Assembly: GCF_020037015.1 (NCBI RefSeq)
Contig: NZ_JAIQDE010000007.1
Span: 179,886 to 243,885 of the forward strand
Reading direction: 5' to 3'
Length of the DNA stretch: 64,000 nt
From: Corallococcus sp. AS-1-6
Lineage (GTDB): Bacteria; Myxococcota; Myxococcia; Myxococcales; Myxococcaceae
The translations under genes and the position numbers were made by a program. The notes beneath the pieces are model-generated. The model was not told the origin of the DNA and ran no database searches. It saw nothing but the letters and a program-made list of their open reading frames with translations. Positions 17,132 through 31,298 of this stretch are shown here, piece by piece; the stretch's first letter is position 1, and the number at the start of each line of letters is the position of its first letter.

Positions 17132-18130
17132 GTGCGGTACATGCCCCAGGAAGCGATACCGTGGCATGGTCTGCTATGCATACGCCCCGTGACATCCCAA
17201 GTCGGCAAATACCAGCGCATCCGCCTGCTCGCTGAAGGCATCATCGAGGACTATCTGGCCAGGGCCGACGGTCCGCAGGGCATCGAGAAGACGCTGGTGC
17301 TCCAATGCCTCCGCACGGACATGGCCGAGCAGGTGGATTTCCCGGAGATCTTCCTAGACACGGCGAGAAGCGCCGCCCGGCTCACGCACCCGCACCTCGT
17401 GAAGGCCTTCGACGTGGGTGAGGCGGACGGCACGTACTTCCTCGCCAGGGAGCACATCGACGGGCCCAGCCTGCGCAGGGTGATCCAACACCTGGTGGCT
17501 CAGCGGATGACCCTGGCGGCGACTCTATGCGCGCGCATCATCTCGCAAGCCTGCGAGGGGCTCGCCTATGCCCATGACCTCACCGACCCGAAAACGCACG
17601 AGCCGCTGAGGCTCATCCACCGACACATCAGGGCGTACAATATCCTCCTGTCGCGCCAGGGGACGACCCAGGTGGTGGACTTCGGCATCGACGATTTCCG
17701 CGATCGATGGGCTCCCCGACACCTCATCCCTAACCTGAGCAAGTACAGGTACATGGCGACCGAGGAGGCCAGGGGCGTGCCGGTGGATCGGCGGGTGGAC
17801 GTATACGCGCTCGGTGTGGCGCTCTACGAGTTGCTCACCACGCGCAGGCCCTTTGATTCCACGCCCGACGGGGGCTTGTTTCAGGCCGCCTTGTTCGAAC
17901 CCATCGTGCCCGCCGAGCAGTACCGGCCAGACCTGCCCGATTCCCTTCGAGCCATTCTCGCCCGGGCGCTCGCGAAGGAGCGGGAGCAGCGCTACCCGGA
18001 CTGCCACGCGTTCCGGAAGGGCCTGGAGGACTTCATCCTCTCGGAAGGGGAGCCGGTGACTTCGCGGCAGTTGGCCCGGTTCGTCCAGCAGGTCACCGCG
18101 AGCGACGATTCCATCCCTCGCCCGTCATGA
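17132..18130 (+). CDS. Ser/Thr protein kinase-like protein with degenerate catalytic motifs (probable pseudokinase)
   Basis: The kinase fold is recognisable. The DFG is present (VVDFGID) and an APE-like loop is present. However HRDLKPEN is replaced by HRHIRAYN, so there is no catalytic Asp. There is no Gly-rich loop or VAIK lysine. Confidence 0.6.
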   Translation: MRYMPQEAIPWHGLLCIRPVTSQVGKYQRIRLLAEGIIEDYLARADGPQGIEKTLVLQCLRTDMAEQVDFPEIFLDTARSAARLTHPHLVKAFDVGEADGTYFLAREHIDGPSLRRVIQHLVAQRMTLAATLCARIISQACEGLAYAHDLTDPKTHEPLRLIHRHIRAYNILLSRQGTTQVVDFGIDDFRDRWAPRHLIPNLSKYRYMATEEARGVPVDRRVDVYALGVALYELLTTRRPFDSTPDGGLFQAALFEPIVPAEQYRPDLPDSLRAILARALAKEREQRYPDCHAFRKGLEDFILSEGEPVTSRQLARFVQQVTASDDSIPRPS

Positions 18131-18160: not shown

Positions 18161-19612
18161 CTACTCCACCGTGAGCAGGAACTGGGCGGATGCTGGATGG
18201 CCCGTCACCGCGAGGACGCGAGACTCCTCTTTGTCCCATTGCCACGCTTTGCCTTGCGACTGCCAGGAGCAGGGCTCGACGGTGATGGTCAGCGGTCCTG
18301 AGCCCTCGCTCCGGGGCTTGAAGGTCACCTCCAGCTCCGCAGTGGCACCGCTCTCCAGTCCGGCGGTAACCCCCACGAGGTTCACGCGGTGCTCCTCCAC
18401 CATCGGGAGCGGCTGGCAGCGATACCGCACGCTCACGTCCACCACGCGAGCGCCAAGGAGCACTCCAGACACGCGGATCCGCACCGCCTCGCAAGCGGTC
18501 CCATCATTGCGCACCGTCGCCCGCCACGTCTCGGTCACGGGCGAGGACACGGTCAGCGGCGCCGAGGAGTGCTCGGTCCAGTGGATTGCGGGCATCTTGT
18601 AGCCCACGTGCATGAGCGGCGCGCCCGGGCTCACCTGACGGTTCGAGGCGTGGATGCGCAAGGGCTGTCCGGGCTCAGCGGTGAGCAGGAAAAGCGCGTC
18701 ACTGTCCTCGGCGCCCACCCACCACTGGTCAGGCCCTGCGGGCGTCACGGACACGAAGGTGGGCCATTCCCCCGCGAGCGTTTCCAGCACCTGGAGCCCG
18801 GGCAGGGACACCAGGAGGACCTTGTCCTGCACAAAGTGGAGCGCCCGCTCCGAGTCGAGAACGCACACCCCTTTACCGCCCCAGGTCAGTTCAACGTCAT
18901 CTTCGTCCTCATCCTCATCGTTGGACGGGAGGGAGCCGAGCAGGGGGCCGTCGAGCGCGAAGTGGAGGAGCGCCGTCTGCCGGTAGTTGATGACGAGCAG
19001 GAGAAGCACGCCGTGGGGAGTGGCCTGGGCCCGCCAGATGTCCTGCTCACTGCCCGGCTCCACCTGGAGCGCTCCCTCCGGTTGAGCCGCCCCCGGGCGG
19101 AGCACGTAGACGCGGCCTCGTCCCTTCTCCACGACGGTGATGCCAAAGGGGCTCGTGTCGAGGAACGCCCCATCGGGAGACTGACGAGGGGGACTTCCCT
19201 CGGAATACCCGTACCCATGCGTAGCTCTTACGGGCTTGGGCAAGGCCACCGGCTCCCACTGCGGCCCGGACGCATCGGTCATGAAGAGGGTGGCCAACTT
19301 GAGGGCACCGTCCACCACCGTTCCAATGAGCCGGCCCCCATCGGTGATGAGATCGAAGCACTCCCTGGGAAGAGCCTGGACGGAAGCGCTCGCATCGGTG
19401 CCCACGGAGAAGACACGCCGATCCCCACTGCCCACCCAGACGTCCGCTGACTCATTGAGCGCGGCGAGCACCACGGGCGCGGACAGAGGATTCGGAACGT
19501 CTCCACTGACTTCCCGGAGCACACCTTCGGCTCCGTGGAACACGATGAGCCGATGCGGCCTGAGATCGAACAGCCACTGCCCACGGGCCATAAGACGGCG
19601 TCTCGGGTACAT
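18161..19612 (-). CDS. Hypothetical protein
   Basis: 483-aa ORF with normal high-GC composition. No motifs were recognised. The antisense ORFs look like junk. Confidence 0.45.
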   Translation of the reverse strand: MYPRRRLMARGQWLFDLRPHRLIVFHGAEGVLREVSGDVPNPLSAPVVLAALNESADVWVGSGDRRVFSVGTDASASVQALPRECFDLITDGGRLIGTVVDGALKLATLFMTDASGPQWEPVALPKPVRATHGYGYSEGSPPRQSPDGAFLDTSPFGITVVEKGRGRVYVLRPGAAQPEGALQVEPGSEQDIWRAQATPHGVLLLLVINYRQTALLHFALDGPLLGSLPSNDEDEDEDDVELTWGGKGVCVLDSERALHFVQDKVLLVSLPGLQVLETLAGEWPTFVSVTPAGPDQWWVGAEDSDALFLLTAEPGQPLRIHASNRQVSPGAPLMHVGYKMPAIHWTEHSSAPLTVSSPVTETWRATVRNDGTACEAVRIRVSGVLLGARVVDVSVRYRCQPLPMVEEHRVNLVGVTAGLESGATAELEVTFKPRSEGSGPLTITVEPCSWQSQGKAWQWDKEESRVLAVTGHPASAQFLLTVE

Positions 19613-19744
19613 GGTTCTGCATCATACCCGCTGACGCATCGCTTGATGCTGCCTTGGGTTAGACGGGGGCGGTAGTAGGCCTCATCTCCTCATTGCAGAG
19701 GCAAGCGTGTGAAGCTGACGCCGATCGTCTAGAGTGCCTACGCT

Positions 19745-20590
19745 ATGACTGTAAAGTACCCTGATCCATTCTTAGAGGTGAGAGTTGAGCATCTTGAGCT
19801 TCCTCTTCCGTTAACCGGCCTATGTGCCGGATACGAAGGAGGGCAATGGCGAAGTGCTCGTCTAGCAGACCACTTGTTCCAGTGGCTTCCATATGCCGCG
19901 CTCAACCAGGAACATCAGCTTTCATTTGGGCCGCACAATTTTGTCGAAATGCTAAGACTTGCGGCTGCTCACATCTACAACTCACAGAAGACTGAGAGCA
20001 GAGGAGAGTTAGGCGAACTGCTTCTCCACCTTGCCTGTGTTTTGCATTTCGGAGCTGTGCCGGTGCTGTGTAAGTTGATTCTGAAGAGTTCGTCGAACGA
20101 CACCGTGAAGGGGTTTGATGGCGTTCACGTTGTTGCCAAAACGGACGGTTTTGAATTGTGGCTCGGAGAGTCAAAATTCTACACCGACGCAAAGATGGCT
20201 ATTCGTGATGCAGTGGAGTCAGTCAAGAGCCATATCTTGCCGAGTTTCCTCACGGCTGAAAAAGCAATGGTCTTTGGTCATGTGGGGCAAGGCATTCCTC
20301 ACCGAGAAGCTGTTTTGCAACTATTTAAGTCACAAACATCGGGGGATAAGCTTCTGAAATTGGCCGTTTTCCCAGTGTTGGTCGCTTACGAGAGCGTGTC
20401 TGTTGCGAGCTTTGCTGAAGTTTCGGCGGAATATGTCAATAGGCTTGCTGAGGAGGTTGCTGGCTTGAGGGCATATTTTGCTGAGAAGACGCAGGGGTTG
20501 ACGCTGCGGTTTCAGCTTGTTTTTGTTCCCCTGGGAAAGAAGAAGGATGTTGTTGATAGTTTTGATAGAAAGCTGGTGCCCTTCCTATGA
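19745..20590 (+). CDS. HamA-like protein (DUF1837-type, PD-(D/E)xK-like nuclease motif) of a Hachiman-like defence pair
   Basis: 281 aa in a ~50% GC island. FDGVHVV ... ELWLGESKFY forms a D...E.K triad. Its stop overlaps the helicase start (ATGA). Confidence 0.55.
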   Translation: MTVKYPDPFLEVRVEHLELPLPLTGLCAGYEGGQWRSARLADHLFQWLPYAALNQEHQLSFGPHNFVEMLRLAAAHIYNSQKTESRGELGELLLHLACVLHFGAVPVLCKLILKSSSNDTVKGFDGVHVVAKTDGFELWLGESKFYTDAKMAIRDAVESVKSHILPSFLTAEKAMVFGHVGQGIPHREAVLQLFKSQTSGDKLLKLAVFPVLVAYESVSVASFAEVSAEYVNRLAEEVAGLRAYFAEKTQGLTLRFQLVFVPLGKKKDVVDSFDRKLVPFL

Positions 20591-22704
20591 GCATTGTTGA
20601 GCGCCTTCGCAAGCTTGAGTCGGCCGATTCGCTTACGTCAAACGACGTGTTTGATGCAATTTTTGCGGCTGGCTCCATTTTGAGTGGCGCTGATCGAGAG
20701 GCAGACAGCGCGCTCGAAATTGCAATAAGGCTACTTGAAGCCCGTCGAAAGGGGCAGTTGCCAGAAGGCTGTGAGGAAGCGGTTGAGTACTTGGCGGAAG
20801 AGTGTGGGCTTTATCCCTATGTTGACCCAAAGCATTTCGGGCACTTGACCAGATCGGTAATTGAAGCACATGCAATAGATCTCCGCGGGAAGGTCTATTT
20901 GCATTCAAAGCAGATGCAGGTTCTGTTGTGGCTGCTGTCTGGCGACAATGTTATACTCAGCGCCCCGACGAGTTTTGGGAAGAGTTTGTTGGTTGATGCT
21001 TTGCTGGCACGCTCGCGCCCGCATACCGTTGTGATGATTCTTCCGACAATTGCGTTGATTGATGAGGCTAGGCGGAGGTTGGCCGCAACGTTTGGTGAGT
21101 CGTATTTTGTCATCACCTCTGTGTCTGATGTGTATGATGGCGAGCGCCCAACAATCTTTGTGCTCACTCAGGAGCGGTTTCTTCAGCGCGATGATGTTGG
21201 CGATATTGATTTGCTTTTCATTGATGAGTTTTATAAGCTTGATCCTGATCGGCAGGATGGTCGCTATGAGACGCTAAATCTCGCTCTCTATAAGGCGCTG
21301 CCGCGAGCTCGCCAGTGCTTTATGGCTGGGCCTCACATTCAGACTATCGAGCTTGGGGAAAAGTGGGCGGGCAATTTCAGGTTTGTGAAAACTGACTACA
21401 GGACTGTGACTGTAAATATCATTGACAGAAGGGCTGGGGGCGAGAGGTTGGCGGTCTTTCTGTCGGATATTTCTGCTGTGGAAGGCCAGAGTTCACTGGT
21501 GTTTACTGCGTCGCCTGCTTCGGCCGAAACGCTCATGGGCGATATGTTGCAGCATGGAGTTAGTTATTTGTCGAGCTTTTCCAGTCTGCTCGGCGATTGG
21601 GTTGAACGCAATTATCATATGGGTTGGATAGTGGCCGAGGGGTGTCGACATGGTGTTGTTGTTCATCATGGTCGAGTGCCGAGAGCGCTGGGACAGTTAT
21701 TTGTTCAATTGTTTGACCGTGGTGATATAAAAATTCTGATTTGCACTTCCACTTTGATTGAGGGGGTGAATACTTCGGCGGCAAATGTGTTCGTTTATGA
21801 CAAAAAGATAAGTCGTACTGATTTTGATTTCTTTTCATTTGCGAATATTCGTGGCCGTGTTGGTCGGATGATGCGTCACTTTGTGGGTAATGCTTATCTG
21901 TATCATGAGCCGCCTAGCGAGGTTGAAACCCGTGTTGATGTTCCTGTGCTCTCAGATCCAGGGTTGTCGACTGATTTTCTTGTAATGAATGTTGAGTCCG
22001 AGGAGTTGTCGCCCATAGGGAGGGAACGGCAGAGAAGTTTGCCGATCTCGACAGGCTTATCGGAATCCGTCTTGCGCGAACATGGGGGGATGGGGGTTGA
22101 ATTGCTTGTTGATGTGTTTGAGCGAGTAAAGGAAGTTTTGCGCACAGATCCCGGGAAGCTCATTTGGGTGAGGCTTCCTAGTTTTGATCAGCGTAGAGTG
22201 ATTGCTGAGCTTGCTTTGCGTGTCACTCATGGGCGAAAGCAGCCTTCGGGTCTTCATTCTGGGCCGAGGGTGTCGTGGGCGTGGTCTCAGCTGCAGAAGC
22301 TGAATTCATTCTCGGCGTTCTTGAGTTGGTTTGTGACGACGTTTCATTCGGCGGAGACGGAAAAAGGGCTGGATGCGGCATTCCAGTTCTTGCAGGCATG
22401 CGAGTTTGCCTTCCCTCGGGCGATTGCCGCTATTGAGGCCCTGGTTATGCAAGTTGTCCCGCATGCGCAGGTGTCTTATGGTTTGTTTATTGCTGGTATG
22501 GAAAACTGGTTTCGGCCATCTTGGATGAAAGAGCTTGATGAGGCCGGCATACCGATTCCGCTAGCAGAACGGCTGCGAATGTTTATCGGACAGGTTGATG
22601 GTAAGAGCGAGGCTCTGAGTAGGTTGAAGGGGTTGGACTTGTCTGGTATTTCCGGACTGGATGCTGTGGACTTGTATGTGCTCAGGAGTGCGCTGGGTTC
22701 GTAG
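20587..22704 (+). CDS. HamB-like superfamily-2 DExx-box helicase
   Basis: 705 aa. Motif I is APTSFGKSLL, motif II is LLFIDEFYKLD and motif VI is FANIRGRVGRMMR. It has a helicase-C core (ICTSTLIEGVN). It is low GC and translationally coupled to the upstream gene. Confidence 0.7.
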   Translation: MSIVERLRKLESADSLTSNDVFDAIFAAGSILSGADREADSALEIAIRLLEARRKGQLPEGCEEAVEYLAEECGLYPYVDPKHFGHLTRSVIEAHAIDLRGKVYLHSKQMQVLLWLLSGDNVILSAPTSFGKSLLVDALLARSRPHTVVMILPTIALIDEARRRLAATFGESYFVITSVSDVYDGERPTIFVLTQERFLQRDDVGDIDLLFIDEFYKLDPDRQDGRYETLNLALYKALPRARQCFMAGPHIQTIELGEKWAGNFRFVKTDYRTVTVNIIDRRAGGERLAVFLSDISAVEGQSSLVFTASPASAETLMGDMLQHGVSYLSSFSSLLGDWVERNYHMGWIVAEGCRHGVVVHHGRVPRALGQLFVQLFDRGDIKILICTSTLIEGVNTSAANVFVYDKKISRTDFDFFSFANIRGRVGRMMRHFVGNAYLYHEPPSEVETRVDVPVLSDPGLSTDFLVMNVESEELSPIGRERQRSLPISTGLSESVLREHGGMGVELLVDVFERVKEVLRTDPGKLIWVRLPSFDQRRVIAELALRVTHGRKQPSGLHSGPRVSWAWSQLQKLNSFSAFLSWFVTTFHSAETEKGLDAAFQFLQACEFAFPRAIAAIEALVMQVVPHAQVSYGLFIAGMENWFRPSWMKELDEAGIPIPLAERLRMFIGQVDGKSEALSRLKGLDLSGISGLDAVDLYVLRSALGS

Positions 22705-22756
22705 ATTGGTGGATGTTGACTGTTTGATTCGTACGCCAGCGACTTGCCACAGCACG

Positions 22757-22800
22757 AAAACGCCGCCTCGCTTCCGGAGGACCGGAAACGGGCGGCGTTT
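22757..22800. terminator. GC-rich stem-loop between the convergent helicase and ABC-F genes (bidirectional terminator candidate)
   Basis: AAACGCCGCC ... GGCGGCGTTT is a perfect 10-bp inverted repeat with a nested CTTCCGG/CCGGAAG stem. It sits directly after both stop codons. Confidence 0.45.
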
Positions 22801-22825
22801 GCACTGCCTCGAATGACTGTGCCGA

Positions 22826-25830
<3,005 letters not shown>

Positions 25831-25962
25831 AGTCCGGGCGCGTGGCCCGCCGGCCGCCCTCCGGCCGGGTTGTGACGGGCGCCACGCGAACAGCGGTGCG
25901 CGGGGACGTGGCGGGTTAGCCTGCGGTGCCCGGGCCGTGTTGCCCGGCGCCCTCTCCGCCGC

Positions 25963-27147
25963 ATGGACCCGCGCGTCGCCACCCTCCTGAGTCACGTCCG
26001 CGCGAACGCGGAGAACCGGCCCGGCGTGTACCGGTTCTTCGGTCCCGCCGGGGAGCTGCTCTACGTGGGCAAGTCCGTGCGGGTGCGCACGCGGCTGTTG
26101 TCGTACTTCCGCGCGGACGAGGGCGAGAAGGCCTGGGAGATCGTCGCCCAGGCGCACCAGGTGGAGTGGGAGTACACGGCCAGCGAGTTCGCGGCGCTCC
26201 TGCATGAGTTCCGCCTCATCAAGAGCCACCGGCCCCTCTACAACGTGGAGCACAAGCGCGACCGCGCGCACTGCTTCCTCCAGCTCACGCGAGAGGCCGT
26301 GCCCCGGCTGCGCGTGGTGGGCCAGCCCGGCGGCGGCGGGAGCGCGGAGTACTTCGGGCCCTTCCACGGCCGGCACACCATGGCGGACGTGGTGCGCGCG
26401 GTGAACGACCTGCTGGAGCTGCGCGACTGCCCGTCGGAGACGCCCATGCGGCTGGCGGATCAGATCCAGCTCTTCCCGCTGAAGGATGATCCGCGGTGCA
26501 TGCGCGGACAGACGGCGCGGTGCCTCTCGCCGTGCGCGGGCGGGTGCACGACGGCGGAGTACCTGGCGCAGGTCGCGCTGGCTCGGGCGTTTCTCAACGG
26601 CGAGTCGGACCGGCCGCTCGTCATCCTGCGTGAGCGCATGGCGATGGCGGCGCGGCGGCTCCAGTTCGAATACGCGGCGGAGCTGCGCGACCGCGCGGAG
26701 CGGCTGGAGAACGTGCAGGCGTGGATCGTCGAGCTGGGGCGCACGCTGCGGCGGCTGTCGCTGATCTACACGGCGCGCGGATATGACGGTGAGGACCGCA
26801 CGTATGTCCTCAGGCGGGGGCGGATCCGCGCGGAGGTCCCCACGCCCCGGACGCTGGAGGAGCAGGCGGCGCTGGACGCGCGCGTGCGGGCCATCTTCGA
26901 CGTGCCGGAGCCGGAGGCGATTGGCCTCCGCGCGCAGGAGGCCCAGGAGGTGATGCTGGTCGCGAAGTGGTTTCGCCTGCATCCGGACGAACTGGATGCG
27001 ACGGTGCCTCCTCCGGCGCGGGCCGGGAGCGATGAGCCCTTCGAAGAGGCGGCGGAGGCACGGGCTGCGCTCGCTCGCACGTTGGAGCGCACCGTGGAGG
27101 GGCCGGAGGAACCAGAGCCCGAGGGTGCCGCTGAGCCGGCGGGGTGA
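25963..27147 (+). CDS. GIY-YIG nuclease + UVR domain protein (UvrC N-terminal-half homolog)
   Basis: It has a GIY-YIG motif (GVYRFFGPAGELLYVGKS), a Cys cluster and a UVR motif (RLQFEYAAELRDRAERLE). The RNaseH/HhH C-terminal half of UvrC is absent. Confidence 0.65.
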   Translation: MDPRVATLLSHVRANAENRPGVYRFFGPAGELLYVGKSVRVRTRLLSYFRADEGEKAWEIVAQAHQVEWEYTASEFAALLHEFRLIKSHRPLYNVEHKRDRAHCFLQLTREAVPRLRVVGQPGGGGSAEYFGPFHGRHTMADVVRAVNDLLELRDCPSETPMRLADQIQLFPLKDDPRCMRGQTARCLSPCAGGCTTAEYLAQVALARAFLNGESDRPLVILRERMAMAARRLQFEYAAELRDRAERLENVQAWIVELGRTLRRLSLIYTARGYDGEDRTYVLRRGRIRAEVPTPRTLEEQAALDARVRAIFDVPEPEAIGLRAQEAQEVMLVAKWFRLHPDELDATVPPPARAGSDEPFEEAAEARAALARTLERTVEGPEEPEPEGAAEPAG

Positions 27148-29543: not shown

Positions 29544-31298
29544 TCAGCCCCCCGTCACGGGGATGAACTCCACGCGGCGGTTCGCGCTGCGGCCCTCTGG
29601 CGTCTCGTTGGACACGCGCGGACGGTCGGGGCCGTAGCCCTTCGCCTCCAGCCGCGAGCCCGCGATGCCCTTCTGGATGAGGTACGCGCGCACGCGGTTC
29701 GCGCGCTGGTGGCTCAGCGTGCGGTTGGCCTCCTCCGGGCCGCTGTTGTCCGTGTGGCCTTCGATCCGGACCTTCAGCTTCGGGTTCGCCTTCAGGTAGG
29801 CCACGATGTCATCCAGTTGCTGCTGCTCGTTCTCCTGGAACTCCGACTGGTTCACCTGGAACTGGACGATGTGCTCCAGCGGCGACTTCGTCTCCTCCGC
29901 GGGCTGCTCCTCGGGAGGCGGCTGGGGCTTGGGCTCCTCGGGCTTGGGCTGCGGCTTCGCGGGGCAGCCACGCTCGGACGCGGGGCCCGCCTCGTTCGGG
30001 CAGGCGTCGTCCTTGTCCGGCACGCCGTCGCCATCCGTGTCCTTCACCGGGCAGCCGCGCTCGGAAGACGGACCGGCCTCGTTCGGGCAGGCGTCGTCCT
30101 TGTCCGGCACGCCGTCACCATCCGTGTCCTTCACGGGGCAGCCGCGCTCGGAAGACGGACCGGCTTCGTTCGGGCACTGGTCCTCGCGGTCCACCACGCC
30201 GTCGCCGTCCGTGTCCTTGTCCGGGCAGCCGTTGTTCTCCACGGAGCCGCCCTCCAGCGGGCAGCGGTCGTCCTTGTTGGCCACGCCGTCGCCGTCGTCG
30301 TCCTCGTTGGGGCACTGCTCCGGCGTGTGGCTGCGGCCCGTGCGGCAGCGGTCCACGGGCTCGGGCTCGTTCGCGTACGCGATGCCCGCGGCCAGCCGGA
30401 ACGACGGCGTGCCCGGGATGTCCGTGAAGCCGTGCCCGCCGAGCGCGAAGGCCTCGAAGCCCGCGCCCACCGGCAGCCGCACGCCGCCCAGCAGCTCCAG
30501 CGCCACGTCCGACTCCACGAGCGACTCGGCGGCCTGCAGCGCGACTTCGGCGCGCAGCCCCTTGCCGCGCGTGGCCACCACCACGCCCTGCTCCAGCTCC
30601 GTGCCGACGTCGCGGCCCGGCTCGACCTCCTTGGAGCGGATCCGGATGCCCGCGTTGGCGCCCAGCACCACGGGGCCCACCTCGCGGCTGATGGACACGC
30701 GGGGCGCGAACTGGAACCCGGCCCAGCCCGCCTGACGGCCGAACGCGTCCGCCGTGCCTCCCGGAATCCCGATGTCCAGGCCCAGGCCCAGGAACACCGG
30801 CGCGCCTTCCTCGCGCCGCAGCAGCTCGTAGCGCACGCCCAGCTCCGGCGTGCCCAGGCCGAACGAGTCCGGCTCGCTCACGCCCACCAACTGCTCCGCG
30901 CCGTGACCGCCCTGCGCGATGATGACGGGCAGCTTCGCGGAGAACTCCAACCGGTCCACCGGCGACCACGCGCCGGCCAGCCAGCCCGCGGTGCGGTAGT
31001 GGAGGATGGAGCGCTCCAGCCCGTCACTGCCCTGGAGCAGCAGGATGCCGCGCTCGTAGTTGACCATGAGGAGCAGGCGGTAGCCGCCCTCGGGGAGCAC
31101 GCGGCCGGTGTCCACCAGCATCGAGTCCGTCGCCGCCGGCGTGAAGCGCAGGCGCTCCAGGTCCAGCGGGACGAGCGGGCTCGTAGGGGTCTGCGCGAAC
31201 GCGGCGGGGGTGACGGCGGTGGCCAGCAGCGCGGCCAGCGCCCAGCTCTTTGCCTTCATACGCAAGGGGAGGTCCATTCGAGAAAAGAGGGAGCGCAT
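29544..31298 (-). CDS. OmpA-family outer-membrane protein with thrombospondin type-3 (calcium-binding) repeats
   Basis: It has a signal peptide and a beta-rich N-terminal half. Repeated DTDGDGVPDKDDACPNE units are TSP3. The C-terminus is an OmpA-like domain (RIEGHTDNSG...NRRVEF). Confidence 0.8.
   Translation of the reverse strand: MRSLFSRMDLPLRMKAKSWALAALLATAVTPAAFAQTPTSPLVPLDLERLRFTPAATDSMLVDTGRVLPEGGYRLLLMVNYERGILLLQGSDGLERSILHYRTAGWLAGAWSPVDRLEFSAKLPVIIAQGGHGAEQLVGVSEPDSFGLGTPELGVRYELLRREEGAPVFLGLGLDIGIPGGTADAFGRQAGWAGFQFAPRVSISREVGPVVLGANAGIRIRSKEVEPGRDVGTELEQGVVVATRGKGLRAEVALQAAESLVESDVALELLGGVRLPVGAGFEAFALGGHGFTDIPGTPSFRLAAGIAYANEPEPVDRCRTGRSHTPEQCPNEDDDGDGVANKDDRCPLEGGSVENNGCPDKDTDGDGVVDREDQCPNEAGPSSERGCPVKDTDGDGVPDKDDACPNEAGPSSERGCPVKDTDGDGVPDKDDACPNEAGPASERGCPAKPQPKPEEPKPQPPPEEQPAEETKSPLEHIVQFQVNQSEFQENEQQQLDDIVAYLKANPKLKVRIEGHTDNSGPEEANRTLSHQRANRVRAYLIQKGIAGSRLEAKGYGPDRPRVSNETPEGRSANRRVEFIPVTGG
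29960..30230. repeat. Three tandem copies of an 87-bp unit inside the OmpA-TSP3 gene (encodes ERGCPVKDTDGDGVPDKDDACPNEAGPSS)
   Basis: Near-identical DNA units are visible from 29960. The third copy is diverging. Confidence 0.6.

What the first reader, a model, noticed from the sequence alone, without database searches (positions are those of the whole stretch)
19613..22825. Low-GC two-gene island: PD-(D/E)xK-like protein + SF2 DExx helicase, Hachiman-like anti-phage module
- Composition drops abruptly from ~70% to ~50% GC (visual estimate).
- The drop matches the boundaries of two translationally coupled genes and nothing else.
- The two genes are a 281-aa protein (FDGVHVV/ELWLGESKFY triad) and a 705-aa helicase. 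The helicase has motifs I, II and VI but no other enzymatic domain.
- This two-gene architecture, gene order and size range match Hachiman (HamA DUF1837 nuclease + HamB helicase).
- The island is flanked by a hairpin terminator. It lies between a housekeeping ABC-F gene and an unrelated gene.
- It carries no integrase or tRNA. This fits a defence-island cargo acquired horizontally.
Basis: partly seen in the sequence, partly recalled or inferred. Interest (0 to 1): 0.75.

Follow-up and report, generated by a model that had tools for sequence, protein, structure and literature searches.

The report
Horizontally acquired Hachiman anti-phage gene pair
This low-GC stretch is a complete two-gene Hachiman phage-defence system (HamA nuclease plus HamB helicase) that a Corallococcus strain gained by horizontal transfer; it is an ordinary member of a known system, and it lies in a chromosomal slot where related species carry other defence systems.

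Summary
GC falls from 0.71 to 0.50 over exactly two genes whose coding sequences overlap by the four bases ATGA. These are hamA (19745-20590, 281 aa) and hamB (20587-22704, 705 aa).

- **Family matches:** HamA matches Pfam HamA/DUF1837 (1.4e-45) and PADLOC HamA1 (4.9e-103). HamB matches PADLOC HamB1 end to end (2.7e-193) and the solved AbpB helicase 8ZUE_B (8.4e-78).
- **Fold and catalytic residues:** The AlphaFold model of HamA finds the three solved HamA structures as its top matches. The nuclease residues D125/E137/E142/K144 and the helicase motifs I, II, V and VI are invariant in the subfamily alignments.
- **Subtype:** There is no HamC and no Cap4 fusion, so this is type I (I-A architecture).
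- **Island limits:** Synteny puts the island at about 19641-22751. The hairpin at 22758-22800 is the conserved terminator of the neighbouring ABC-F gene, not island DNA.
- **The slot in relatives:** It holds Hhe+PD-Lambda-1, Shedu, Tiamat and other cargo, and it is empty in one species.
- **A second allele:** Another Corallococcus strain has a Hachiman allele in the same slot. Its synonymous divergence is saturated while the flanks are 97.5% identical, so the two were acquired separately.

This is a new member of a known kind, and interest is low. The hotspot is the only mildly new element.

The parts
19641..19744 (+). Island-specific sequence upstream of hamA (104 bp). It is presumed to hold the promoter and ribosome-binding site, but neither was identified.
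   Evidence: Homology to relatives that carry the 483-aa gene ends at about 19637-19642. It is not homologous to the 520-bp upstream region of the second Corallococcus allele in L081. No sigma-70 consensus site was found and no ORF of HamC size is present.
19745..20590 (+). hamA: a 281-aa protein made of a DUF1837 domain only, the PD-(D/E)xK-type effector nuclease. Putative catalytic residues are D125, E137, E142 and K144.
   Evidence: Pfam HamA 1.4e-45. PADLOC HamA1 4.9e-103, profile positions 3-277 of 279. The AlphaFold2 model (pLDDT 84.9) has as its top Foldseek matches 8zue_A, 8vxy_A and 8vx9_A. D125, E137, E142 and K144 are invariant in 27 homologues. GC3 is 0.51.
20587..22704 (+). hamB: a 705-aa SF2 (Ski2/Hel308-like) helicase, the sensor and ATPase. 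Its start codon overlaps the hamA stop codon (ATGA).
   Evidence: PADLOC HamB1 2.7e-193, profile positions 8-706 of 709. Pfam DEAD plus Helicase_C. 8zue_B (AbpB) 8.4e-78 over residues 21-665. Motifs I (S125-K132), II (D213-Y216), V (T387-N395) and VI (R422-R427) are invariant in 27 homologues. The overlap was read directly.
22705..22751 (+). Island-specific spacer downstream of hamB.
   Evidence: It lies between the hamB stop codon and the point at about 22752 where all relatives become alignable.
22758..22800 (.). GC-rich hairpin. It is the native intrinsic terminator of the convergent ABC-F gene and marks the right edge of the insertion slot. It may also stop hamB transcription.
   Evidence: 10-bp perfect outer stem plus an inner stem. 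On the minus strand it is followed by TTTTCGTG. It is conserved in all 11 relatives aligned and in the empty-slot genome L006.
22826..24424 (-). ABC-F family ATPase gene: the conserved right anchor of the slot and not part of the system.
   Evidence: Pfam ABC_tran x2 plus ABC_tran_Xtn. NCBIfam ABC-F family ATPase 9.7e-186. 70-100% identical in 80 Myxococcaceae genomes. GC3 is 0.955.
18161..19612 (-). 483-aa protein of unknown family: the left flank of the island and not part of the system.
   Evidence: No Pfam, PADLOC or NCBIfam hit. It is 82-85% identical in L002, L003, L008 and L009, which carry other cargo. It is split into 361 + 118 aa in L081.

Best explanation
The island is an intact type I Hachiman anti-phage system. 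Its architecture is I-A: a stand-alone DUF1837 nuclease HamA plus the SF2 helicase HamB, expressed as one translationally coupled operon.

The mechanism below is inferred from the characterised E. coli systems. HamA and HamB form a heterodimer in which HamB's N-terminal helical region holds the nuclease in check while the complex scans intact double-stranded DNA. Phage replication or DNA damage produces free single-stranded DNA ends. When such an end enters the HamB active site, ATP hydrolysis and RecA-domain ratcheting activate or release HamA. HamA then degrades phage and host DNA without discrimination, which is abortive infection.

What is shown here: family membership of both proteins, the HamA fold, intact catalytic and helicase motifs, the operon structure, purifying selection, foreign composition, and location in a defence hotspot. 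What is inferred: complex formation, the trigger, nuclease activity, and protection against myxophages.

The cassette reached this Corallococcus strain (protein identity 100% to Corallococcus sp. AS-1-6) by horizontal transfer. It sits in a slot between the ABC-F terminator and a 483-aa gene, with no integrase. The most likely route is homologous recombination through the conserved flanks.
For: - Profile hits: Pfam HamA 1.4e-45; PADLOC HamA1 4.9e-103 and HamB1 2.7e-193, both end to end.
- Solved relatives: HamB to 8zue_B 8.4e-78 over the full length; HamA to the C-terminal domain of 8zue_A 1e-7, or 4e-10 with a profile.
- Fold: the HamA model has the three solved HamA chains as its only matches with E <= 0.001, followed by FokI.
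- Catalytic residues: D125/E137/E142/K144 are invariant. The E-x-K pattern matches the mutated, essential E138/K140 of ECOR31 HamA (PMC12278908) and E150/K152 of DEC14B HamA (PMC11914072).
- Helicase motifs are invariant.
- Conserved cassette: the same unit (HamA 280-281 aa, 4-bp overlap, HamB 705-717 aa) recurs in Methylorubrum, Pseudomonas and metagenomes beside integrases, an IS element or a filamentous prophage. In every host it is 13-16 GC points below its flanks.
- Selection: dN/dS between the two Corallococcus alleles is 0.08-0.13.
- Context: the same slot holds Hhe+PD-Lambda-1, Shedu, Tiamat and PD-Lambda-1+PDC-M04A in relatives, and it is empty in C. llansteffanensis.
Against: - No experiment exists for this subfamily or for any myxobacterial Hachiman.
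- The subfamily profile does not reach ECOR31 HamA by sequence; only the fold comparison does. ECOR31 HamB matches only in RecA2 (1.5e-9). Mechanistic details taken from ECOR31 may therefore not transfer.
- The nearest solved helicase, AbpB, works with a Cap4 nuclease that is absent here.
- No promoter was identified.
- The equivalence of the catalytic residues rests on motif pattern and invariance, not on a residue-level superposition.
Confidence: 0.92

Rival explanations
1. An AbpAB-like (type I-B) Hachiman, in which the DUF1837 domain is only a scaffold and another domain does the cutting.
For: Among solved structures both proteins are closest to AbpA/AbpB (8ZUE): HamB 8.4e-78, and HamA 4e-10 with TM 0.66.
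Against: HamA is 281 aa and the Pfam profile covers residues 39-262, so there is no N-terminal Cap4 or other domain. At the four invariant positions D125/E137/E142/K144, AbpA has E, Q, F and E. The paper on that structure describes the AbpA DUF1837 as lacking active sites (PMC11914072).
Confidence: 0.03
2. A type II Hachiman (HamC-HamA-HamB) that has lost HamC or has it elsewhere.
For: The proteins also score highly against the PADLOC type II models: HamA2 2.2e-80 and HamB2 3.4e-175.
Against: Only 104 bp lie upstream of hamA inside the island, with no ORF above 23 aa on the + strand. The neighbouring 483-aa protein has no Pfam hit, so no DUF3223. Homologous cassettes in four other hosts also consist of two genes. 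The type I models score higher.
Confidence: 0.02
3. A decayed or domesticated remnant: a helicase-nuclease pair that no longer works in defence, for example one used in DNA repair, or silent foreign DNA.
For: No promoter consensus was found. GC3 of 0.51 in a genome with GC3 around 0.9 implies poor codon adaptation. The neighbouring 483-aa gene is a pseudogene in the other Hachiman-bearing strain.
Against: Both ORFs are full length against their profiles. There are no gaps against the second allele, and dN/dS is 0.08-0.13. All catalytic and helicase motifs are invariant.
Confidence: 0.03

Closest known systems
Type I-A Hachiman: E. coli ECOR31 HamAB (PDB 8VX9; Tuck et al., Cell 2024, PMC12278908) and E. 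coli DEC14B HamAB (PMC11914072)
   Same: Two genes in the order hamA then hamB. HamA is a DUF1837 domain alone with an intact E-x-K nuclease motif. HamB is an SF2 helicase with intact ATPase motifs. The HamA fold matches 8VX9_A and 8VXY_A (Foldseek probability 1.00, TM 0.51-0.57).
   Different: Sequence similarity to ECOR31 is very low. The HamA subfamily profile does not detect 8vx9_A. ECOR31 HamB has 1174 aa against 705 here, and matches only over RecA2 (1.5e-9). The C-terminal OB-like barrel described for ECOR31 HamB was not examined here.
AbpAB, the type I-B Hachiman of E. coli K-12 (PDB 8ZUE; PMC11914072; PMC10732053)
   Same: The helicase is of similar size (729 aa against 705) and aligns over nearly its whole length (8.4e-78). 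The DUF1837 domain of AbpA aligns over residues 26-248 of HamA and is the best fold match.
   Different: AbpA has 565 aa with an N-terminal Cap4 nuclease, and its DUF1837 domain lacks the catalytic residues. Here HamA has no N-terminal domain and keeps D125/E137/E142/K144.
Type II Hachiman (hamC-hamA-hamB, for example Sphingopyxis witflariensis, as cited in PMC13064477)
   Same: HamA and HamB score strongly against the PADLOC HamA2 and HamB2 models (2.2e-80 and 3.4e-175).
   Different: There is no HamC/DUF3223 gene in or beside the island.
Defence hotspots at fixed chromosomal positions (a general concept, from my own knowledge of the E. coli and Pseudomonas literature)
   Same: A slot bounded by conserved core genes carries different defence systems in different strains and is empty in one.
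   Different: No integrase, tRNA or terminal repeats occur at this slot. Turnover seems to go through homology in the flanks, as suggested by a 537-bp duplicate of the ABC-F 3' end in L003.

Membership tests
Hachiman (type I) | HamA carries a DUF1837 domain (Pfam PF08878) scoring above the curated threshold. | tested here: met
   156.4 bits against a cut-off of 25, E 1.4e-45, profile positions 2-229 of 230. PADLOC HamA1 PDLC00170 4.9e-103.
Hachiman (type I) | HamA adopts the PD-(D/E)xK-like fold seen in solved HamA structures. | tested here: met
   AlphaFold2 model with pLDDT 84.9 and pTM 0.86. The Foldseek top three matches are 8zue_A (3.8e-9), 8vxy_A (3.3e-6) and 8vx9_A (4.9e-5), followed by FokI.
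Hachiman type I-A | Nuclease active-site residues (D...E-x-K) are conserved in DUF1837. | tested here: met
   D125, E137, E142 and K144 are invariant in 27 homologues of 55-86% identity. The pattern G-E-S-K corresponds to the mutated E138/K140 (ECOR31) and E150/K152 (DEC14B) reported. No residue-level structural superposition was done.
Hachiman (type I) | HamB is an SF2 helicase of the HamB family with intact ATPase and helicase motifs. | tested here: met
   PADLOC HamB1 PDLC00180 2.7e-193, profile positions 8-706 of 709. Pfam DEAD 9e-9 and Helicase_C 3e-5. 8zue_B 8.4e-78. Walker A, DEFY, motif V and motif VI are invariant.
Hachiman (type I) | hamA and hamB are adjacent on the same strand and form one operon. 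| tested here: met
   ATGA overlap at 20587-20590. The same arrangement occurs in five other loci: L081, L082, L083, L085 and L086.
Hachiman type II | A third gene, hamC (DUF3223), is present. | tested here: not met
   There is no ORF of suitable size in the 104 bp upstream and no DUF3223 hit in the neighbouring proteins.
Hachiman type I-B (AbpAB) | An N-terminal Cap4-type nuclease is fused to a catalytically dead DUF1837 domain. | tested here: not met
   HamA has 281 aa and DUF1837 covers residues 39-262. The catalytic residues are present here and substituted in AbpA.
Hachiman (any type) | HamA and HamB form a heterodimer, and DNase activity is ATP-dependent. | not testable with these tools
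   No complex prediction or biochemistry is available. This is inferred from PMC12278908 and PMC11914072.
Hachiman (any type) | The system confers resistance to phage. | not testable with these tools
   No experimental data exist for this subfamily or for myxobacteria.
Genomic island / horizontally acquired DNA | Atypical composition together with presence/absence polymorphism among close relatives. | tested here: met
   GC 0.503 against 0.706, and GC3 0.51-0.52 against 0.81-0.955. The island is absent from C. coralloides KYC2213, whose right flank is 98.9% identical, and from the slot in all 80 ABC-F loci. The slot is empty in L006.

The most novel reading that the evidence does not exclude
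The interval just downstream of the ABC-F terminator may be an integrase-free defence hotspot across the genus Corallococcus. In this reading, whole defence cassettes, including divergent alleles of the same system, are swapped by homologous recombination through the conserved flanks. The incoming DNA would arrive by transformation or transduction, which was not examined.

Three observations do not exclude this. Two Hachiman alleles with saturated synonymous divergence occupy the same slot between flanks that are 97.5% identical. C. aberystwythensis carries a 537-bp direct duplicate of the ABC-F 3' end, which looks like the scar of a Campbell-type integration. A short leader after the terminator is semi-conserved in front of unrelated first cargo genes.

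Separately, this compact Hachiman lineage (an AbpB-like helicase with an active minimal HamA) could resemble the ancestor of AbpAB before the Cap4 fusion. It might also sense phage SSB, as AbpAB does.
Probability: 0.45. Interest if true: 0.4.

Novelty: new member of a known kind. Interest (0 to 1): 0.2.

Why it matters
It matters little for the biology of Hachiman itself. PADLOC models recognise both proteins end to end, so standard defence-system finders should call the pair automatically. It is already in public databases, annotated as a DUF1837 protein and a DEAD/DEAH helicase.

There are three modest points of value:
1. It documents Hachiman in myxobacteria. No paper in the searched library treats myxobacterial Hachiman or this strain.
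2. It marks a well-delimited defence hotspot with an empty-site reference, which could be mined for unknown cargo. Candidates are the GGDEF protein in L011, the ATPase-methyltransferase in L009 and the unknown ORFs in L003.
3. It is a clean example of two deeply diverged alleles of one defence system sitting at one locus. That bears on how defence genes turn over without dedicated mobility genes.

Tried and rejected
- **Terminal repeats or att sites at the island ends:** only short chance matches were found.
- **tRNA anywhere in the window:** none.
- **Sigma-70 promoter scan:** 0 sites found against 2.2 expected.
- **Rfam scan of 19300-23100:** only a chance mir-30 hit at E 0.062.
- **NCBIfam:** no HamA or HamB model exists. 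The helicase gives only weak Hel308/RecG-type hits far below their cut-offs.
- **Plasmid and phage collections:** the closest relatives reach at most 41% (plasmids) and 33% (phages) protein identity, and at most 36% over most of the protein's length, so no donor replicon was identified.
- **Exact-sequence look-up of the window's HamB:** it failed twice, although the protein is in the homology database.
- **Reaching ECOR31 HamA by sequence with a subfamily profile:** this failed. Fold comparison was needed.
- **In-situ divergence of the two Corallococcus alleles:** rejected, because dS is 1.3-2.1 or saturated, against 0.07-0.08 in the adjacent ABC-F gene.
- **The hairpin as part of the island:** rejected, because it is conserved in every aligned relative and in the empty site.
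- **The kinase plus 483-aa pair as part of the Hachiman system:** rejected, because both occur with other cargo in L002, L008 and L009.
Full report
**1. Observation**

The composition profile shows 400-nt windows at 0.65-0.70 GC on both sides and 0.445-0.54 between about 19600 and 22800. The hamAB coding span is 0.503 GC, against 0.706 for the rest of the 64-kb window. The lowest 3-kb window of the whole sequence (0.503) starts at 19751; the lowest one clear of the island is 0.662. Third-position GC is 0.51 for hamA and 0.52 for hamB. The neighbours have 0.955 (ABC-F), 0.886 (GST), 0.844 (kinase) and 0.81 (the 483-aa gene).

The low-GC stretch holds two plus-strand ORFs, 19745-20590 (281 aa) and 20587-22704 (705 aa). 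They overlap by ATGA. The whole window has no tRNA, and the island contains only these two genes.

**2. Identity of the two proteins**

- The 281-aa protein matches Pfam HamA (PF08878) at 1.4e-45 across essentially the whole profile. It matches PADLOC HamA1 at 4.9e-103.
- The 705-aa protein has Pfam DEAD and Helicase_C domains and nothing else. It matches PADLOC HamB1 at 2.7e-193 over profile positions 8-706 of 709.
- Every strong PADLOC hit for either protein is a Ham model.
- Against solved structures, HamB aligns over residues 21-665 with AbpB of the E. coli K-12 Hachiman (8zue_B, 8.4e-78). It aligns only over RecA2 with ECOR31 HamB (8vx9_B, 1.5e-9).
- HamA aligns with the C-terminal DUF1837 domain of AbpA (8zue_A) at 1e-7, or 4e-10 with a 27-sequence profile.
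- An AlphaFold2 model of HamA (pLDDT 84.9, pTM 0.86) has three Foldseek matches with E <= 0.001: 8zue_A, 8vxy_A and 8vx9_A. These are the three solved HamA chains. FokI comes next.

**3. Functional integrity**

In a 27-sequence alignment of HamA homologues (55-86% identity), D125, E137, E142 and K144 are invariant. The G-E-S-K element has the E-x-K pattern of the residues whose mutation abolishes defence: E138/K140 in ECOR31 (PMC12278908) and E150/K152 in DEC14B (PMC11914072). AbpA, whose DUF1837 domain is reported as catalytically dead, has E, Q, F and E at these four positions.

In a 27-sequence HamB alignment (45-77% identity), Walker A (S125-K132), motif II DEFY (213-216), motif V (T387-N395) and motif VI (R422-R427) are invariant.

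**4. Subtype**

There is no HamC. Only 104 bp of island DNA lie upstream of hamA, with no usable ORF, and the neighbours have no DUF3223 hit. HamA has no N-terminal extension. By the scheme of PMC11914072 this is type I-A, the majority class (86% of HamA sequences in that study). Its helicase is nevertheless much closer to the type I-B helicase AbpB than to ECOR31 HamB.

**5. Source and boundaries**

Both proteins are 100% identical to entries from Corallococcus sp. AS-1-6, annotated as 'DUF1837 domain-containing protein' and 'DEAD/DEAH box helicase'.

A scan of species-representative genomes with the ABC-F protein returned 80 Myxococcaceae loci. None has hamAB beside ABC-F. C. coralloides KYC2213 has an identical ABC-F protein and a right flank that is 98.9% identical over 11 kb. 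Yet it carries other genes in the slot: a 1785-aa DUF4011/MTES_1575 helicase-nuclease (PADLOC Hhe/PDC-S37), PD-Lambda-1 and a SIR2-like protein.

DNA homology to the relatives resumes at window 22748-22758 in every case. On the left, where the 483-aa gene is present, homology ends at 19637-19642. The foreign segment is therefore about 19641-22751.

The hairpin at 22758-22800 is conserved in all 11 relatives aligned and in the empty-slot genome. On the ABC-F strand it is followed by TTTTCGTG. It is therefore the ABC-F terminator, not island DNA, although it may also stop hamB transcription. No terminal repeats flank the island.

**6. The slot is a defence hotspot**

Occupants in Corallococcus-group genomes:

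| Occupant of the slot | Loci |
|---|---|
| Hachiman | window; L081 (sp. CA049B) |
| Hhe + PD-Lambda-1, with or without SIR2 | L001, L004, L005, L007, L012, L017 |
| PD-Lambda-1 + PDC-M04A/DUF3800 | L002 |
| Shedu SduA (1.6e-132) | L008 |
| Tiamat TmtA (9.7e-110) + a NERD/UvrD helicase | L010 |
| AAA_21 ATPase-methyltransferase + a Kelch protein | L009 |
| GGDEF protein of 776 aa | L011 |
| Unidentified cargo | L003 |
| Empty slot (C. llansteffanensis) | L006 |

**7. Two Hachiman alleles in one slot**

Corallococcus sp. CA049B has hamAB in the same position and orientation. The genes are only 73.3% (hamA) and 72.0% (hamB) identical in DNA, with no gaps. The adjacent ABC-F gene is 97.5% identical, and the left-flank genes are 89-95% identical.

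Synonymous divergence is 1.3-2.1 for hamB and saturated for hamA, against 0.07-0.08 for ABC-F. dN/dS is 0.08-0.13. The upstream regions (104 bp against 520 bp) are unrelated.

The two alleles therefore diverged long before the two hosts did. They arrived separately or by allelic replacement, and both are under purifying selection.

**8. The cassette elsewhere**

About 3,900 HamB relatives score E <= 1e-30. The next closest are 62-65% identical and come from Methylorubrum, Methyloceanibacter and metagenomes; those from Pseudomonas, Devosia and Pseudorhizobium are 55-58% identical.

The same two-gene unit (HamA 280-281 aa, 4-bp overlap) lies in three kinds of mobile context:
- between integrase genes in Methylorubrum;
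- beside a Pf-like filamentous prophage in Pseudomonas;
- near an IS element in a metagenomic contig.

In every host it is 13-16 GC points below its flanks. No close relative is in the plasmid or phage collections.

**9. Mechanism**

This section is inferred from the E. coli work read. HamAB is a heterodimer. HamB restrains HamA while it surveys intact double-stranded DNA. A single-stranded DNA end entering the helicase site triggers ATP hydrolysis and a conformational change that activates HamA. HamA then degrades all DNA in the cell, which is abortive infection.

Nothing in the sequence contradicts this. The low similarity to ECOR31 and the closeness to AbpB leave the exact trigger open. It could be DNA ends or phage SSB; the latter is reported for AbpAB in the paper titled (PMC10732053).

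**10. Verdict**

The finding is a well-preserved, horizontally acquired type I Hachiman system: a new member of a known kind, and of low interest in itself. The surrounding integrase-free hotspot is the only mildly new element.

Noticed in passing
window 19641-22751 slot; loci L001-L012, L017, L081 downstream of ABC-F: The interval after the ABC-F terminator is a defence hotspot across Corallococcus. Different genomes carry Hachiman, Hhe+PD-Lambda-1(+SIR2), PD-Lambda-1+PDC-M04A, Shedu, Tiamat+NERD/UvrD helicase, an ATPase-methyltransferase, or a GGDEF protein. The slot is empty in C. llansteffanensis.
   Followed up: partly
L003 1257-1789 and 6894-7430: C. aberystwythensis has a 537-bp direct duplicate (95% identity) of the ABC-F 3' end plus terminator. 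The two copies bracket about 5 kb of cargo, which includes an HTH_23/HTH_32 transposase-like ORF. This looks like the scar of a single-crossover (Campbell-type) integration through ABC-F homology.
   Followed up: partly
L001, L002, L004, L008, L011, L012, L017, about 35-40 bp after the ABC-F terminator: A short leader ending in G-rich sequence followed by ATG is semi-conserved directly after the terminator, although the first cargo gene differs between genomes (Hhe, PD-Lambda-1 and others). It is absent where hamAB sits in the opposite orientation.
   Followed up: no
window 17132-18130 (+): A 332-aa Ser/Thr kinase hits the PADLOC PD-T4-6 models at 1.6e-50 over the full model length. Pfam Pkinase gives only 1e-21. 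This may simply reflect the abundance of such kinases in myxobacteria, but the gene lies inside the variable region.
   Followed up: no
window 18161-19612 (-): A 483-aa protein with no Pfam, PADLOC or NCBIfam hit. It is conserved at 82-85% in several Corallococcus species, next to the kinase wherever the contig extends that far. It is split into 361 + 118 aa in strain CA049B. Only about 28 bp upstream of its start codon are conserved.
   Followed up: partly
L083/L084 1-5110: In Pseudomonas sp. AG1028 the homologous hamAB cassette lies directly beside a Pf-like filamentous prophage (Zot, Phage_Coat_B), with an Arc-family repressor gene just upstream of hamA.
   Followed up: no
window 29955-30290: An in-frame 87-bp tandem repeat of about 3.2 copies, or 1.9 copies at period 174. 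It is also repeated in the relatives. By eye, the minus strand encodes an aspartate-rich motif like a thrombospondin type 3 repeat.
   Followed up: no
window 24328-26982 (-): An 884-aa ORF with no Pfam or PADLOC hit, conserved at 60-98% across Myxococcaceae next to ABC-F. Its 3' end overlaps the upstream extension of the longest ABC-F ORF, so the true ABC-F start is probably near 24424, as in the 532-aa gene call in L081.
   Followed up: no
tool behaviour: The exact-sequence contig look-up found nothing for the window's HamB or for P0001, although the homology search lists P0001 from NCBI on a 359,885-bp contig. The source contig could therefore not be fetched.
   Followed up: no
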